Assembly (NCBI GenBank): GCA_965279475.1
Contig: CBDIIA010000001.1
Coordinates: 360,933 to 424,932, forward strand
Origin: Pseudorhodoferax sp.
GTDB taxonomy: Bacteria; Pseudomonadota; Gammaproteobacteria; Burkholderiales; Burkholderiaceae_C
DNA length: 64,000 bases
Direction of reading: 5' to 3'
In this document: positions 24,409-29,040 of the stretch, piece after piece
Numbering within the stretch: position 1 is the stretch's first letter
Layout of the letters: every line of letters begins with the position of its first letter
Translations under genes and position numbers: made by a program
The notes under the pieces: model-generated
What the model was told of the DNA's origin: nothing
Database searches by the model: none
The model's input: the letters and a program-made list of their open reading frames with translations, nothing else

Positions 24409-25218
24409 ATGCCTGATGCTCCTCGTCTGGATCTGCCGTCCGGCACGCAAAGCCTGACGCGCGGCATCAAGCTGCTGCGCACGGTGGCGACGCGTGGCGA
24501 GATGGGCTGGCGGCTGTCCGATCTGGCGGCCGCCTGCGGCCTCGACAAGGGCACGGCGCACCGCATCCTCGCCGGCCTGGTGAAGGAGCGGCTGGTGCAG
24601 CAGCGCGCGGGCGACCGCCGCTACCTGCCGGGCCCCTTGCTGTACGAGCTGGGCCTGTCGCTGCCCGGCCAGCACGAGTTCCAGGGCGCTGTGGACAAGC
24701 AGCTCGGCGCCTGGGCCCGGCGCATGAACGGCACGGCCCTGCTGTTGCTGCGCAGCGGTTTCGAATACGTGTGCAGCGCGCGTGCCGGCACCCCGCCGCC
24801 GGGGCTGATGGTGGAGCCGGGCACGCGCCGGCCGCTGTTCACCTCGGTCGGTGGCGTGGCCATCCTGCAGACCCTGCCCGCGGCGGAGGCCGAGGCCGTG
24901 CTGCGTAACAACGTGGAGCAGGAGACGGCCAAGCTCGGTGCTGCCCGGCTGGGCGCGCTGCGGCAGATGCGCGACCGCTCGGCGCAGCACGGCTTCGGCG
25001 TCAACCTGGGCGACGTGGTGGGCGGCGTGCACGCGTTCGCCGTGCCGCTGGCAGGCCCCGACGGCAAGGCCTTCGCGGCGCTGTGCCTGATTGGCACGGC
25101 CGACAGCCTGCCCGAGGCACGCATCGCCGACATCCGCGCCGCGCTCGACGGCCAGGCCCGGCTGCTGGAGGCCGATGCGGCGCACATGCTGTTCCGCGCG
25201 CCGGTGCTGCCGCAATAA
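24409..25218 (+). CDS. IclR-family transcriptional regulator
   Basis: N-terminal HTH (LSDLAAACGLDKGTAHRIL) plus C-terminal IclR effector domain. Confidence 0.85.
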   Translation: MPDAPRLDLPSGTQSLTRGIKLLRTVATRGEMGWRLSDLAAACGLDKGTAHRILAGLVKERLVQQRAGDRRYLPGPLLYELGLSLPGQHEFQGAVDKQLGAWARRMNGTALLLLRSGFEYVCSARAGTPPPGLMVEPGTRRPLFTSVGGVAILQTLPAAEAEAVLRNNVEQETAKLGAARLGALRQMRDRSAQHGFGVNLGDVVGGVHAFAVPLAGPDGKAFAALCLIGTADSLPEARIADIRAALDGQARLLEADAAHMLFRAPVLPQ

Positions 25219-25305
25219 GTTCAACATGCGAAATTTCGCGCGCGACGGGCCTTGGTCCGGCGGTCGGTCGGGACTAACGTGCCTGCCTGCTCGACCCGGA
25301 ACGCC

Positions 25306-26577
25306 ATGCACAACCTCAAGACCGCACTGAATCTCGACGACATCCGGACACTGGCACGCCGCAAGCTGCCACGGATCGCCTTCGACTTCATCGACGGCGG
25401 TGCCGATGACGAACACTGTCTGCGCCGCAACCGCGAGGCCTTCCAGCAGTACCGGCTGCTGCCGCGCTACCTGGTGGACGTGTCGCGCCGCGACCAGTCG
25501 ACGACCCTGCTCGGCCAGCGCTACGCCAGCCCGTTCGGCATCTCGCCCACCGGCCTGGCGGGCCTGTTCTGCCCCGATGCCGATCGCCTGCTGGCCAGCG
25601 CCGCGGCCGCCGCCAACGTGCCGTTTCTGCTGTCGAGCGCGAGCAACGGCGAGCTCGAGGACGTCGCGCGTGCTGCGCCCGAGCACGTGTGGTTCCAGAT
25701 GTACTGCACGTCGGACGAGACCATCAACGCCGACCTGGTGCGCCGCGCGCGCGAGGCCGGCGTGCGGGTGCTGGTGGTGTCGGTAGACGTGCCCGTCAAC
25801 TCCAACCGCGAACGCAACCGGCGCAACGGCTTCAGCCGCCCGTTCCGCATGACGCCCGGCGTCGTGCTCGAGGCGCTGGCGCATCCGGCCTGGGTGCTGC
25901 GTTACCTGCGTACCGGCGGCATCCCGATGATGCGCAACTGGGAGCCCTATGCGCCGCAAGGCGCGAGCGCATCCCAGGTGGCCGACATGTACGGCACGCT
26001 CACGCCTGCGCCCATGGTGCAGTGGCAGCACCTGCAGCGCATCCGCGAAGCCTGGCCCGGCGCCATGGTGGTCAAGGGCCTGCTGCACCCGGACGACGCG
26101 CGCCAGGCCGTGCGCCTGGGCGTCGACGCGCTGATCGTCTCCAACCATGGCGGCCGCCAGCTCGATGCCGCACCGTCCCCGCTCGAGATGCTGCCAGCCA
26201 TCCGCGCCGCGGTCGGCGACGACGTGGAGCTGATCCTCGACAGCGGCGTGCGGCGCGGCTCGGATGTCGTCATCGCCCGCTGCGTGGGCGCCCGCTTCGC
26301 GCTGTTCGGCCGGCCCACGCTGTTCGGCGCTGCCGCCGGCGGCCAGCCCGGCATCGCGCGCGTGCTGCAGATCGTGCGCAACGAGATCGACATGGTGATG
26401 GCCCAGATCGGCTGCCGCAGCTTCGATGCGCTGCATGCCGGCTACCTGTGGCCGGCGGCGCCGGACGCCGCCTCGCCGGCACCCGCAACCGCCCCCGCAC
26501 CCACGCTCGCACAGAAACAAACAACACCACAGGAGACAACATGCGAACCTTCCATCCCCTCACACGCCGTGCCCTAG
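25306..26577 (+). CDS. FMN-dependent alpha-hydroxy-acid dehydrogenase (L-lactate/mandelate dehydrogenase family) with a low-complexity C-terminal tail
   Basis: LldD-family motifs (SNHGGRQLD etc.). Its 3' end overlaps the dctP remnant start in another frame. Confidence 0.85.
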   Translation: MHNLKTALNLDDIRTLARRKLPRIAFDFIDGGADDEHCLRRNREAFQQYRLLPRYLVDVSRRDQSTTLLGQRYASPFGISPTGLAGLFCPDADRLLASAAAAANVPFLLSSASNGELEDVARAAPEHVWFQMYCTSDETINADLVRRAREAGVRVLVVSVDVPVNSNRERNRRNGFSRPFRMTPGVVLEALAHPAWVLRYLRTGGIPMMRNWEPYAPQGASASQVADMYGTLTPAPMVQWQHLQRIREAWPGAMVVKGLLHPDDARQAVRLGVDALIVSNHGGRQLDAAPSPLEMLPAIRAAVGDDVELILDSGVRRGSDVVIARCVGARFALFGRPTLFGAAAGGQPGIARVLQIVRNEIDMVMAQIGCRSFDALHAGYLWPAAPDAASPAPATAPAPTLAQKQTTPQETTCEPSIPSHAVP

Positions 26578-26727
26578 CCGGCTGCACGCTCGCGCTGGCC
26601 GCCGGCCTGGCCACGGCTGCGGACAGCTGGCGCGCCTAAACCTACAACGCGGGGGCCACGGTGACCTCGGTCAAGGGGCTGAACGCGATGATCGAGGCGA
26701 TCCAGAAGGCCGCGGTCGGTCGCTGGC
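26530..26727 (+). pseudogene. dctP: TRAP transporter solute-binding protein DctP remnant (internal deletion fusing signal peptide to C-terminal end, plus in-frame TAA)
   Basis: MRTFHPLTRRALAGCTLALAAGLATAADSWRA*TYNAG...EAIQKAAVGRW. About 260 codons of a normal DctP are absent. Confidence 0.55.
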
Positions 26728-27283: not shown

Positions 27284-27292
27284 GGAGCGGCC

Positions 27293-28405
27293 ATGGGCGA
27301 GCAATACCAGATCATCTTCATCTTCGCGCTGTTTATCGGCCTGCTCGGCGTGGGCCTGGCCAGCTGGGGCAGCACCGACAGCTACACGCTGACCGCGATC
27401 CCGTTGTTCGTGCTGCTGGCCGAGGTGCTGCAGGGCAGCGGCCTGGGGCTGCGCGATGTTCGCCGCCGTCAACGGCTCCAGCATCGCCGCGGCCGCCTCC
27501 ATCGGCAAGGTGGCGTTGCCGCAGCTGAAGGCGCGCGGCTACGACATGCGCATGGCCACCGGCTCGCTGCGGCCGGCAGCACGCTGGGCATCCTGGTGCC
27601 GCAGTCGATCGCGATGATCGTCTATGCCACCTTCACTGAGACCTCGGTGGCCAAGCTGTTCATGGCCGGCGTGGTGCCGGGCATCGTGCTTACCGTGCTG
27701 TTCATGGTCTATGTGGCAGTGGCTTCCAAGCTGCGCCCGGGCATCGCGCCGCGCGAGCAGGGTGAGTGGTCACGCCAGATCGTGCTGCGCGCGCTGATCG
27801 ACGTCGTGCCCTTCCTGCTGCTGATCCTGGGCATCCTCGGCACGATCTACAGCAGCATCGCCACGCCCACCGAGGCGGCCGCGGCGGGCTGCCTGTTCGC
27901 GCTGCTGCTGGCGCGTGTCTTCGGCGACCTGCCGTGGCGCGAGTTCGTCGCCTGCCTGAAGCGCTCGACGCTGGTGGTGAGCAACATCCTGCTCATCACC
28001 TACGCCGCCTTCATCTTCTCGTACGCGATGAGTTTCGCCGTCATCGGCCTCAAGCTGAACCGCACGAAGTTCTTCATCGCGCTGCTGATCCTGTTCACCG
28101 CGCTCGGCGCGCTGGTCGAAAGCCTGGGCATGATCGTCATCACGGTGCCGCTGCTGTACCCACTGCTCGGCAGCTACGGCATCGATCCGGTGTGGTTCGG
28201 CATCATCGTCGTGGTCTTCATCGAGATGGGGCAGATCACGCCGCCGATCGGCATCAACCTGTTTGTGATCCAGAGCATCTCGCGCGGCAAGCTGTCCGAC
28301 GTGGTGGTCGGCACGGTCCCGTTCCACCTGCTGATGTTCGTGCTGCTGCTGGTGATCTTCCCCGGGATCGCGCTATGGCTGCCGGGCCGGATCGCCGGCC
28401 GTTGA
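27293..28405 (+). pseudogene. dctM: TRAP transporter large permease DctM with an internal deletion/frameshift near 27450 and a second frameshift near 27570
   Basis: DctM-like N- and C-terminal parts. The middle (MFAAVNGSSIAAAASIGKVALPQLKARGYDMRMATGSL) is readable only in the +1 frame. Confidence 0.7.
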
Positions 28406-28427
28406 CGTCCAGACCCCGGAGACACCG

Positions 28428-29040
28428 ATGTTCGCACCCCCCGAACGCCTGCAGGCCGAAGTCTTCGCCCGCATCCCCGAACGCTTCCACGTGACCGGGC
28501 GCGTCGAGCCCTGGCTCGAACGCGCGCGGCTCGAGCGCTTCAAGGGCTGCGACGACCTGTTCTTCGCCTCCAACGGCGACCTGTAGTTCACCGACCAGGG
28601 CCAGACCGGCCTGCACGACCCCAGCGGCCGCCTGTTCCGCCAGCGCCCGTCGGGCCAGCTCGACGTGGTGCTGGTCGGCATCCCCAGTCCGAACGGGCTG
28701 GTGATGAACCTCGACGAGACCGCCGTCTACCTGGCGGCCACGCGCGCCAACGCCATCTGGCGTGTGCCGCTGATGGCCGACGTCACGGCGACCAGGGTCG
28801 GCACCTACATCCAGATGTCGGGCGGCGGCGGGCCGGACGGCATCGCGCTCGACGCGCAGGGCGGGCTGGCCGTGTGCCACGTCGGCTTCGGCGCGGTGTG
28901 GATCTTCAGCCCGCGCGGCGAGCCGCTCTGCCGCATCGATTCTCCCGAAGGCCCGTACACGACCAACTGCGCCTACGGTGGCGCGGACGGCCGCACGCTG
29001 TACATGGTCGAGTCGCGCTCGGGCTGCATCCTGACGGTCC
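28428..29040 (+). pseudogene. SMP-30/gluconolactonase/LRE-family lactonase remnant (internal deletion, in-frame TAG, 3' end replaced)
   Basis: MFAPPERLQAEVFARIPERF...FASNGDL*FTDQGQTGLHDPSGRL...GIPSPNGLVMNLDE...GGADGRTLYMVESRSGCIL. GGAGA Shine-Dalgarno before the ATG. Confidence 0.6.

What the first reader, a model, noticed from the sequence alone, without database searches (positions are those of the whole stretch)
24409..29040. Decaying hydroxy-acid/lactone utilisation locus: TRAP transporter and lactonase are multiply inactivated while the regulator and dehydrogenase stay intact
Seen in sequence: dctP retains only its signal peptide fused to the C-terminal 30 or so residues, with a TAA at the junction. 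dctQ has two point nonsense codons, each one substitution away from a plausible sense codon (RLSP-R->TGA; LLA-Y->TAA). dctM has an internal deletion plus a second frameshift. The lactonase has an internal deletion of about 90 codons and a TAC->TAG change (NGDL*FTDQG). All three stop codon types occur. The IclR regulator and the LldD-like dehydrogenase appear full-length, although the dehydrogenase has an odd low-complexity C-terminal tail overlapping the dctP remnant. Several independent lesions argue for genuine pseudogenisation under relaxed selection rather than a single sequencing error.
Basis: seen in the sequence. Interest (0 to 1): 0.55.

Follow-up and report, generated by a model that had tools for sequence, protein, structure and literature searches.

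The report
Decayed transporter and lactonase genes
Four neighbouring genes for importing and opening a lactone or hydroxy-acid nutrient have been wrecked by about a dozen separate mutations, while the regulator and three enzyme or binding-protein genes of the same gene set stay intact; this is ordinary bacterial gene decay, seen unusually clearly.

Summary
Window 26541-29036 holds remnants of dctP, dctQ, dctM and an SMP-30-type lactonase. Compared with 12 intact orthologous loci they carry 4 nonsense codons (TAA, TGA, TAA, TAG), 8 deletions (798, 6, 84, 74, 1, 27, 6 and 261 nt) and a cut 3' end, with no insertions. The IclR regulator and the FMN-dependent dehydrogenase are full length and unchanged at conserved sites.

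Corrections:
- The dctP remnant is the first 64 codons joined to the last 5, by a 798-nt deletion between two 16-nt direct repeats. The TAA replaces a conserved Tyr and is not at the junction.
- dctM has five deletions.
- The dehydrogenase's "odd tail" is a variable family feature, lengthened by an ATGA to ATGC stop loss that intact-looking relatives share.

New findings:
- The rest of the gene set, TctC and TauD, lies intact 6.3 kb downstream.
- A conserved tRNA-HNH-SPFH-RtcB block separates it from the decayed genes.
- TctC carries the same 22-nt upstream motif as the dehydrogenase.
- Several relatives lack the TRAP-lactonase module at the locus.

Best reading: genuine pseudogenisation of a dispensable uptake and lactonase module under relaxed selection. 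This is a known kind of event and of low interest.

The parts
24060..24135 (+). tRNA-Thr(TGT). It is the last feature shared with relatives before a 36.7-kb variable region.
   Evidence: ARAGORN. Synteny with L060-L067 ends at 24135 and resumes at 60819. No repeat of its 3' end was found in the window.
24409..25218 (+). IclR-family regulator, intact
   Evidence: HTH_IclR plus IclR_C. 72% identical to the L002 orthologue over residues 7-268. 0 of 52 invariant positions changed.
25217..25238 (+). Conserved 22-nt motif AAGTTCAACATGCGAAATTTCG upstream of the dehydrogenase; probable operator
   Evidence: One of only two matches in the window, with 0 expected. The same motif lies 48-97 nt upstream of FMN_dh in 25 related loci.
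25306..26577 (+). FMN-dependent alpha-hydroxy-acid dehydrogenase, intact, 423 aa. Its tail is extended 13 codons into dctP by an ATGA to ATGC stop loss.
   Evidence: PF01070, profile 1-349 of 350. P0001 is identical, and homologues are 83-88% identical and 396-430 aa long. Tails compared. 1 of 147 invariant positions changed.
26541..26726 (+). dctP remnant: codons 1-64 fused to the last 5 codons. TAC to TAA at 26637-26639; deletion junction within the repeat at 26694-26709 (798 nt + 6 nt lost); former stop now TGG at 26724-26726.
   Evidence: No Pfam match. Aligns to residues 36-69 of L002 DctP. N- and C-termini of 13 reference DctP proteins. Junction alignment. The two repeats are 798 nt apart in L011, L031, L041, L043 and L004.
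26728..27282 (+). dctQ pseudogene: full length, GTG start, two nonsense codons (TGA 27037-27039, TAA 27106-27108)
   Evidence: PF04290, profile 1-132 of 132, spans both stops. In the alignment with 12 references the TAA replaces an invariant Glu.
27293..28405 (+). dctM pseudogene. Deletions of 84 nt (after 27345), 74 nt (after 27446), 1 nt (after 27568), 27 nt (after 28038) and 6 nt (after 28346). Codons 27449-27568 are out of frame with the start.
   Evidence: PF06808 matches only from profile position 98. DNA and protein alignments. 14 of 228 invariant residues changed, more than in any of 14 references. All full-length homologues are 432-437 aa, against 370 here.
28428..29036 (+). SMP-30/gluconolactonase-type lactonase pseudogene: 261-nt in-frame deletion after 28493, TAC to TAG at 28584-28586, last ~15-20 codons missing
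   Evidence: PF08450, profile 69-243 of 246. Alignments with 11 references.
29049..29080 (-). Terminator hairpin of rtcB, into which the lactonase remnant runs; right edge of the decayed segment
   Evidence: Terminator scan: 14-pair stem plus T run on the minus strand. Sequence.
29098..35297 (-). Intervening block, not part of the regulon: rtcB, SDH-type protease and SPFH protein, then tRNA-Val, HNH endonuclease and tRNA-Leu/His/Arg (all minus strand), plus a small plus-strand ORF (34911-35297)
   Evidence: Pfam and ARAGORN. The HNH-SPFH-RtcB order is conserved in relatives L068 and L069.
35321..35342 (+). Second copy of the 22-nt motif (AAGTTCAACATACGAAACTTCG), upstream of TctC
   Evidence: The same position is seen upstream of TctC in 10 related loci. 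DNA homology with L011 starts at 35323.
35416..36396 (+). TctC-family (tripartite tricarboxylate transporter) binding protein, intact. In L002 its orthologue follows the lactonase directly.
   Evidence: 76% identical to L002 TctC over residues 5-328. PF03401. 1 of 106 invariant positions changed.
36414..37292 (+). TauD/TfdA-family 2-oxoglutarate dioxygenase, intact. No RraA-like gene follows it.
   Evidence: 87% identical to L002 TauD. PF02668. 1 of 103 invariant positions changed.

Best explanation
Shown: the segment 26541-29036 is a run of four true pseudogenes, dctP, dctQ, dctM and an SMP-30-type lactonase. In relatives these genes form an intact unit behind an IclR regulator and an FMN-dependent alpha-hydroxy-acid dehydrogenase.

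Inferred history: the TRAP uptake system stopped being needed. After that, point nonsense mutations and microhomology-mediated deletions accumulated without being purged. The transporter genes were probably hit first, because dctM and dctQ show extra amino-acid change. The lactonase was probably hit later, because it shows lesions but no extra substitutions.

Shown: the regulator, the dehydrogenase and two further members of the same gene set, a TctC-type binding protein and a TauD-type dioxygenase 6.3 kb downstream, are intact and unchanged at conserved sites. Each unit is preceded by the same 22-nt motif.

Inferred: these four genes form a still-working core. The lineage is converging on the IclR-dehydrogenase-TctC-TauD layout that several Ramlibacter genomes show with no TRAP or lactonase genes at the locus. 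The dead genes are probably still transcribed as the 3' part of the dehydrogenase mRNA. The substrate is unknown.
For: - Family identity of all parts.
- Intact reference loci with the order IclR-FMN_dh-DctPQM-SGL-TctC-TauD-RraA (L002), and 11 others carrying DctPQM-SGL.
- Lesions mapped base by base.
- All eight indels are deletions. Six of the eight are multiples of 3. The four large ones (798, 84, 74 and 261 nt) lie between direct repeats or microhomology and the 6-nt dctM one lies in a CTG repeat run. This matches the pattern reported for bacterial pseudogenes in PMC6054270.
- Flanking sequence quality is good: 19 of 19 conserved genes are intact.
- Invariant-site test: DctM 14/228 (references: median 0.7%, maximum 4.5%); IclR 0/52; FMN_dh 1/147; TctC 1/106; TauD 1/103.
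- Three-taxon branch lengths with L002 and L011, window branch relative to reference branches: DctM 1.86, DctQ 1.38, against IclR 0.66, FMN_dh 0.72, TauD 0.43 and SGL 0.65.
- TRAP-SGL is dispensable at this locus: L001, L007, L008, L009 and L014 have IclR-FMN_dh-TctC-TauD and no TRAP or SGL within 9 kb of FMN_dh.
- The motif occurs twice in the window with 0 expected. In related loci, 50 of 58 matches lie 36-112 nt upstream of FMN_dh, TctC, DctP or TauD homologues.
- My own arithmetic: if 11 lesions fell at random over about 7.7 kb of ancestral coding sequence, all of them landing in the 3.8 kb of TRAP-SGL has probability about 0.49^11, or 4e-4.
Against: - No reads were available, so the four point stops and the 1-nt deletion cannot be verified individually.
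- The lactonase shows no excess substitution (4/105 invariant positions, within the reference range; branch ratio 0.65). Relaxed selection on it is inferred only from its three lesions.
- DctQ had only 7 references in the invariant-site test, and that test is uninformative for it (3/79, equal to the median).
- TctC has a branch ratio of 1.15 with one reference pair.
- Whether TctC-TauD were ever contiguous with the lactonase in this lineage is unknown.
- That the motif binds this IclR protein is inferred from position alone.
- No closely related genome (above 90% identity) is available to date the events or polarise them.
Confidence: 0.85

Rival explanations
1. The lesions are sequencing or assembly artefacts in a draft or metagenome-derived contig, and the genes are intact in the organism.
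For: No reads could be inspected. The organism is represented by a single 457-kb contig with no close relative in the databases. Another metagenomic contig (L004) also shows split DctM and TauD calls, which could be error.
Against: Deletions of 798, 261, 84, 74 and 27 nt between short imperfect repeats are not typical base-calling or assembly errors. None of the lesions lies in a long homopolymer. Nineteen conserved flanking genes, plus IclR, FMN_dh, TctC and TauD, are frame-intact. dctM also has an excess of substitutions at invariant residues.
Confidence: 0.04
2. The whole gene set is dead or dispensable, and IclR, FMN_dh, TctC and TauD simply have not been hit yet.
For: The substrate and any need for it are unknown. 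The RraA-like gene present in L002 and others is absent here. The gene set is physically split by 6.3 kb.
Against: All 11-13 lesions fall in the TRAP-SGL half of the coding sequence (about 4e-4 by chance; my arithmetic). The four intact genes have 0-1 changes at invariant sites and short branches. Both copies of the upstream motif are perfectly kept. The same four-gene layout exists in Ramlibacter loci.
Confidence: 0.08
3. Inactivation was selected for, not merely tolerated. For example, the TRAP system imported something harmful or costly, so the first knockout was adaptive and the rest followed neutrally.
For: The binding-protein gene is almost entirely removed and every gene of the module is hit. 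The neighbouring genes of the same gene set are preserved.
Against: Nothing in the sequence distinguishes adaptive from neutral first loss. Many relatives simply lack the module at the locus, which fits dispensability. The lesion spectrum is that of neutral decay.
Confidence: 0.12
4. The shortened ORFs are functional variants or are rescued by recoding, meaning stop-codon readthrough or programmed frameshifting.
For: The dctM frame 27293-28405 is open end to end (370 aa) and was called as a protein in the source collection (P0241). dctQ is full length apart from its two stops.
Against: Three different stop codons are involved. DctP lacks 268 of about 335 codons, and TRAP systems depend on their binding protein (established knowledge). 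The open dctM frame translates 40 codons out of register and lacks 64 residues in total, 53 of them in the N-terminal region. Every full-length homologue listed is 432-437 aa. The lactonase lacks the first third of its propeller domain.
Confidence: 0.01

Closest known systems
Bacterial pseudogene decay under deletional bias (Kuo & Ochman 2009, PMC2817411; Kuo & Ochman 2010, PMC2916853; Danneels et al. 2018, PMC6054270)
   Same: Multiple independent disabling mutations in adjacent genes that are no longer needed. Indels are all deletions, most are multiples of three, and most lie between microhomologies. Neighbouring genes are kept.
   Different: The organism appears to be a free-living Burkholderiales bacterium with otherwise intact genes in this window. 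It is not a host-restricted genome rich in pseudogenes. No insertion sequence is involved.
Intact IclR-FMN_dh-DctPQM-SGL-TctC-TauD-RraA loci of Comamonadaceae and other Burkholderiales (L002 GCA_004172925.1; L011 Ramlibacter sp. WS9; L035 Rubrivivax MAG)
   Same: Same genes in the same order, with 66-87% protein identity. The 22-nt motif lies upstream of the transcription units in many of these loci.
   Different: Here DctPQM and SGL are pseudogenes, RraA is absent, and TctC-TauD are separated from the rest by a 6.3-kb tRNA-HNH-SPFH-RtcB block.
Minimal IclR-FMN_dh-TctC-TauD loci of Ramlibacter (L007, L008, L009, L014)
   Same: The set of intact genes in the window equals this four-gene layout, including the motif in front of FMN_dh and, in L007, L008 and L014, in front of TctC.
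   Different: Those loci have no trace of TRAP or lactonase genes between FMN_dh and TctC. The window still carries 2.5 kb of their remains.
TRAP transporters (DctPQM type)
   Same: The DctQ and DctM domains are recognisable, and the gene order P-Q-M is kept.
   Different: All three components are disabled, so this is not a working member.

Membership tests
Bacterial pseudogene | Clear homology to a functional gene family along the remnant | tested here: met
   Pfam DctQ, DctM and SGL. tblastn and alignments to 11-13 intact orthologues, including the DctP N-terminus.
Bacterial pseudogene | Disabling lesions relative to intact orthologues | tested here: met
   4 nonsense codons, 8 deletions and one 3' truncation.
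Bacterial pseudogene | Signs of relaxed constraint beyond the lesions | tested here: inconclusive
   Met for DctM (14/228 invariant sites; branch ratio 1.86) and suggested for DctQ (ratio 1.38). Not seen for the lactonase (4/105; ratio 0.65)..
Bacterial pseudogene | Lesions are real in the DNA of the organism and are not sequencing errors | not testable with these tools
   No reads available. Indirect support: 19 of 19 flanking genes are intact, and the lesions are large deletions.
TRAP transporter (DctPQM), functional | Complete periplasmic binding protein DctP (PF03480) | tested here: not met
   No Pfam hit. Only 64 + 5 of about 335 codons remain, with a TAA.
TRAP transporter (DctPQM), functional | Uninterrupted DctQ and full-length DctM | tested here: not met
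   Two stops in DctQ. DctM matches the profile only at positions 98-407 and lacks 64 residues.
SMP-30/gluconolactonase/LRE-like lactonase, functional | Complete SGL domain without stops | tested here: not met
   Profile 69-243 of 246 only; 87 codons deleted; TAG; 3' end cut.
IclR-family regulator | HTH_IclR N-terminal domain plus IclR_C effector domain, full length | tested here: met
   PF09339 at 48.4 bits. PF01614 at 23.7 bits, just under its cut-off of 24. Full-length alignment to orthologues.
FMN-dependent alpha-hydroxy-acid dehydrogenase (PF01070) | Full-length FMN_dh domain | tested here: met
   433 bits, profile 1-349 of 350.
L-lactate dehydrogenase LldD (NCBIfam NF033901) | Score above the curated cut-off | tested here: not met
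   262 bits against a cut-off of 550. It is 'LldD-like' at superfamily level only; JGI calls its homologues (S)-mandelate dehydrogenase.
tRNA-linked integrative genomic island | Insertion next to a tRNA gene, absent from relatives | tested here: met
   24136-60819 is absent between tRNA-Thr and dciA in L060-L067.
tRNA-linked integrative genomic island | Integrase gene and a direct repeat of the tRNA 3' end at the far border | tested here: not met
   No integrase or transposase domains among the scanned ORFs. No second copy of the tRNA-Thr 3' end. GC is only slightly raised: 70.1% against 66-67.5%.

The most novel reading that the evidence does not exclude
The window may catch a widespread, uncharacterised Burkholderiales catabolic regulon in the act of shedding an accessory module. 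The regulon comprises an IclR regulator, an FMN-dependent hydroxy-acid dehydrogenase, a TauD-type dioxygenase, a TctC binding protein, and optionally a TRAP transporter, a lactonase and an RraA-like aldolase. Each transcription unit would be marked by a newly recognised operator, AAGTTCAACATGTGAAACTTCG. The decay pattern would then show which genes form the indispensable core and that TRAP and TctC uptake routes are redundant. This would give a handle for finding the unknown substrate.
Probability: 0.4. Interest if true: 0.3.

Novelty: new member of a known kind. Interest (0 to 1): 0.18.

Why it matters
- Annotation: the 370-aa dctM frame is called as an ordinary protein in the source collection (P0241), and the dctQ, dctP and lactonase fragments could be mis-annotated in the same way.
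- Teaching example: it is a clean small case of the bacterial mutation spectrum. Only deletions occur, most are multiples of three, and most lie between short repeats.
- Mild functional hint: the genes that survive, and the shared upstream motif, define the likely core of an uncharacterised hydroxy-acid regulon that is common in Comamonadaceae and related Burkholderiales.

It does not bear on any major open question.

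Tried and rejected
1. Finding the source genome or a near-identical strain. The dehydrogenase, TauD and RtcB proteins of the window are singletons. Exact look-ups of two window proteins (the dehydrogenase and TauD) found no contig on record, and the genome-contig scan returned no 100% match. 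The lesions therefore could not be dated or polarised against a sister genome.
2. A global MAFFT and a cheap-gap pairwise alignment misplaced the dctP remnant. Aligning the remnant separately to the reference 5' and 3' ends resolved this.
3. Looking for terminal repeats around the 6.3-kb block (29.04-35.32 kb) as a sign of a mobile insertion. None was found; only the operator motif is repeated.
4. Looking for an integrase or an att repeat for the 36.7-kb variable region. None was found.
5. NCBIfam, to name the substrate. No model reached its cut-off. A literature search for this gene combination found nothing specific.
6. A suspected second pseudogene at 55.1-56.8 kb (cydC). Rejected: a long open frame, 53510-56815, covers it.
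7. A suspected frameshift in tatC, which is 57% identical against about 80% for its neighbours. Rejected: it gives one frame-intact full-length match and is merely divergent.
8. Codon-based dN/dS was not attempted. The closest references are only 75-85% identical at DNA level, so I expected synonymous sites to be near saturation (not measured). Invariant-site and three-taxon protein tests were used instead.

Full report
**What is in the sequence**

The window is high-GC (67.5%) DNA from a Burkholderiales bacterium.
- Its SspA protein is identical to that of several Comamonadaceae-type genomes.
- Its RtcB is closest to Aquabacterium and Roseateles proteins (89-93% identity).

Reading 24.0-29.3 kb in three frames and scanning against Pfam gives the following, all on the + strand:
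- an IclR regulator (24409-25218);
- an FMN-dependent alpha-hydroxy-acid dehydrogenase (25306-26577; PF01070 profile 1-349 of 350);
- a short open frame starting with a signal peptide (26541-);
- a DctQ domain that spans two in-frame stops;
- a DctM domain recognised only from profile position 98;
- an SMP-30/gluconolactonase (SGL) domain recognised only from profile position 69.

**Intact references**

A protein search with the dehydrogenase and a scan of representative genomes returned many orthologous loci.
- L002, a Comamonadaceae MAG (GCA_004172925.1), has the complete order IclR-FMN_dh-DctP(337 aa)-DctQ(196)-DctM(437)-SGL(314)-TctC-TauD-RraA.
- Eleven further loci carry complete DctPQM-SGL next to the same genes in various orders.

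These served as references for mapping each lesion.

**Lesions**

*dctP.* The remnant reads MRTFHPLTRRALAGCTLALAAGLATAADSWRA*TYNAGATVTSVKGLNAMIEAIQKAAVGRW.
- Reference DctP proteins begin with a signal peptide followed by WRAYTYNAVATVT(S/A)VKGLNA(M/L)FEAIQKE.
- They end with ...EALQKVRAAVGR*.
- So the remnant is N-terminal codons 1-64 joined to the last five codons.
- The join lies in the 16-nt sequence GAGGCGATCCAGAAGG (26694-26709). In intact genes this occurs twice, 798 nt apart, once encoding EAIQK and once EALQK.
- A further 6 nt are missing just after the join.
- The TAA (26637-26639) replaces the first Tyr of WRAYTYN (TAC in the three references aligned at DNA level), 20 codons upstream of the join.
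- The old stop is now TGG.

*dctQ.* This gene is full length, with a GTG start as in L035 and L046.
- It has TGA at 27037-27039, at a variable position (Arg in 4 of 12 references).
- It has TAA at 27106-27108 in place of an invariant Glu.

*dctM.* Deletions are as follows.

| Size | Position | Note |
|---|---|---|
| 84 nt | after 27345 | between the imperfect repeats GCTGCTSGGCGTGGGC / GCTGCACGGCMTGGGC |
| 74 nt | after 27446 | between GGGCCTGCGCG / CCGGCTGCGCG |
| 1 nt | after 27568 | restores the frame |
| 27 nt | after 28038 | in frame |
| 6 nt | after 28346 | within a CTG repeat run |

Forty codons are out of register. In total 64 residues are missing.

*Lactonase.*
- A 261-nt in-frame deletion follows 28493 and removes residues 23-109.
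- TAC has become TAG at 28584-28586.
- Homology is lost from about 29036, where the frame runs into the rtcB terminator hairpin.

No insertion larger than 9 nt was seen, and none within conserved coding sequence.

**Are the lesions real?**

Reads are not available, so this cannot be shown directly. Indirect evidence is strong.
- Five lesions are deletions of 27-798 nt between short imperfect repeats. That is the signature of microhomology-mediated deletion and is not what base-calling or assembly error looks like.
- None of the lesions sits in a long homopolymer.
- Nineteen conserved genes flanking the region, from hisI to secA, give single full-length frame-intact matches.
- The spectrum matches that described for bacterial pseudogenes in PMC6054270, PMC2817411 and PMC2916853: only deletions, six of eight a multiple of three, most with flanking microhomology.

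**Relaxed versus maintained selection**

*Invariant-site test.* For each gene I counted positions that are invariant in all references but changed in the window, and ran the same leave-one-out count for every reference.
- DctM: 14 of 228 (6.1%), above all 14 references (median 0.7%, maximum 4.5%).
- IclR 0 of 52, FMN_dh 1 of 147, TctC 1 of 106, TauD 1 of 103: all ordinary.
- The lactonase (4 of 105) and DctQ (3 of 79, few references) are not distinguishable from references.

*Three-taxon branch lengths.* These were computed with L002 and L011. The window branch, relative to the reference branches, is:
- 1.86 for DctM and 1.38 for DctQ;
- 0.66 for IclR, 0.72 for FMN_dh, 0.43 for TauD and 0.65 for the lactonase.

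I infer that the transporter lost constraint first and the lactonase more recently.

*Distribution of lesions.* By my own arithmetic, 11 lesions scattered at random over about 7.7 kb of ancestral coding sequence would all fall in the 3.8-kb TRAP-SGL half with probability about 4e-4.

**The dehydrogenase tail**

Homologues of 396-430 aa all carry variable Pro/Ala/Thr-rich C-terminal tails.
- Many end ...QETT* where the stop overlaps the dctP start (ATGA).
- In the window the overlap reads ATGC, so the frame continues for 13 codons (CEPSIPSHAVP...) across the dctP signal-peptide codons.
- P0002 and P0006, 83% identical relatives, have the same extension.

The tail is therefore a family feature plus a harmless stop shift. 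It is not part of the decay.

**The rest of the gene set**

tblastn with the L002 proteins found TctC (35416-36396, 76% identity) and TauD (36414-37292, 87%) intact 6.3 kb downstream on the same strand. No RraA homologue is present.

Between them and the lactonase lie:
- rtcB;
- an SDH-type protease;
- an SPFH protein;
- tRNA-Val;
- an HNH endonuclease;
- tRNA-Leu, tRNA-His and tRNA-Arg;
- a small ORF.

The HNH-SPFH-RtcB order, with gaps where the tRNA genes would lie, is conserved in relatives L068 and L069, where unrelated variable DNA flanks it. The block therefore looks native and not like a mobile insertion. No terminal repeats bound it.

Two histories remain open, and I cannot decide between them:
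- this lineage once had lactonase and TctC adjacent, as in L002, and a rearrangement separated them; or
- the two units were always separate here, since the modules occur in several orders among relatives.

**A shared upstream motif**

The 22-mer AAGTTCAACAT(G/A)CGAAA(T/C)TTCG occurs exactly twice in the window. One copy is 68 nt upstream of the dehydrogenase start and the other 74 nt upstream of TctC, with none expected by chance.

In 57 related loci (about 1 Mb), 50 of 58 matches with up to 4 mismatches lie 36-112 nt upstream, on the same strand, of a homologue of one of four genes:
- FMN_dh: 25;
- TctC: 10;
- DctP: 9;
- TauD: 6.

I infer that this is the operator or promoter element of the IclR regulator and that each unit of the gene set is controlled separately. 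That would explain how FMN_dh and TctC-TauD can stay functional although split.

There is no motif copy in front of dctP here, as in L011 and L035. The dead genes were therefore presumably co-transcribed with the dehydrogenase.

**Why the TRAP-lactonase module could be lost**

Several loci, mostly Ramlibacter (L001, L007, L008, L009, L014), have IclR-FMN_dh-TctC-TauD with no TRAP or lactonase genes within 9 kb of FMN_dh. The module is thus accessory. The set of intact genes in the window equals that minimal layout.

TctC-type binding proteins work with TctAB membrane components encoded elsewhere (established knowledge). So a second uptake route is plausible, but it is not shown.

The substrate is unknown. 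No NCBIfam model reaches its cut-off; for example, LldD scores 262 bits against a cut-off of 550.

**Wider context**

Relative to genomes L060-L067, everything from 24136 to 60819 is extra DNA between tRNA-Thr and dciA-secA.
- It holds ordinary metabolic and signalling genes and no integrase.
- There is no repeat of the tRNA end.
- The GC content of the locus is only slightly raised (70.1%).
- It is best called a variable region, not a classical island.

**Rivals**

- Sequencing artefact is unlikely, for the reasons given above.
- Functional short variants or recoding are excluded for practical purposes. Three stop types are involved. The binding protein is almost wholly deleted. Every full-length DctM homologue listed is 432-437 aa, against 370 aa here.
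- "Everything is dead and the intact genes are just lucky" is disfavoured by the lesion distribution and the conservation tests.
- Adaptive rather than neutral first loss cannot be distinguished from sequence alone.

**Verdict**

This is a genuine, well-resolved case of operon decay. It is a new instance of a well-known process and of low general interest. Minor value lies in correcting annotation, in the clean deletion spectrum, and in the pointer to a conserved but uncharacterised regulon and its likely operator.

Noticed in passing
window 25217-25238 and 35321-35342; also L001-L059: A 22-nt motif (AAGTTCAACATnYGAAAYTTCG) occurs only twice in the window. In related loci it lies 36-112 nt upstream of FMN_dh, TctC, DctP or TauD homologues in 50 of 58 matches. 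It is probably the operator of the IclR regulator of an uncharacterised regulon.
   Followed up: partly
window 35416-37292: Intact TctC and TauD genes sit 6.3 kb away from the decayed genes. In L002 they follow the lactonase directly. The RraA-like gene of the reference loci is absent.
   Followed up: yes
window 29098-35297; L068 6265-9812; L069 7702-11218: A block of tRNA-Arg/His/Leu, an HNH endonuclease, tRNA-Val, an SPFH protein, an SDH-type protease (only in the window) and RtcB. The HNH-SPFH-RtcB order is conserved in relatives. There, both flanks hold variable, partly defence-like genes (AbiEi, CHAT, Macro/PARG, TniQ).
   Followed up: partly
window 24136-60819: This 36.7 kb is absent from relatives, in which tRNA-Thr is followed directly by dciA-secA. 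It has no integrase and no att-like repeat. One relative (L066) shares only the serA-like gene at 51683-52919.
   Followed up: partly
window 26536-26577: The dehydrogenase stop, normally ATGA overlapping the dctP start, reads ATGC, which extends the protein by 13 residues. The same extension is seen in homologues P0002 and P0006.
   Followed up: yes
window 27293-28405: The damaged dctM still forms one open 370-aa frame and is present as a called protein in the public collection (P0241). It is therefore likely annotated as an ordinary gene in the source record.
   Followed up: partly
L004 7914-8974 and 10493-11882: An independent metagenomic contig with the same locus has DctM split into two ORFs, a truncated TctC and a split TauD. 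This could be another decaying copy or a poor assembly.
   Followed up: no
window 43098-51665: A second IclR-linked catabolic cluster. It has a xylose-isomerase-like TIM barrel, an HPPD-like dioxygenase, a branched-chain-type ABC transporter and a shikimate/quinate dehydrogenase-like gene, and appears intact.
   Followed up: no
window 13873-14676: TatC is only 57% identical to the L066 orthologue, while neighbouring genes are about 77-89% identical. It is frame-intact, so it is divergent or replaced, not damaged.
   Followed up: partly
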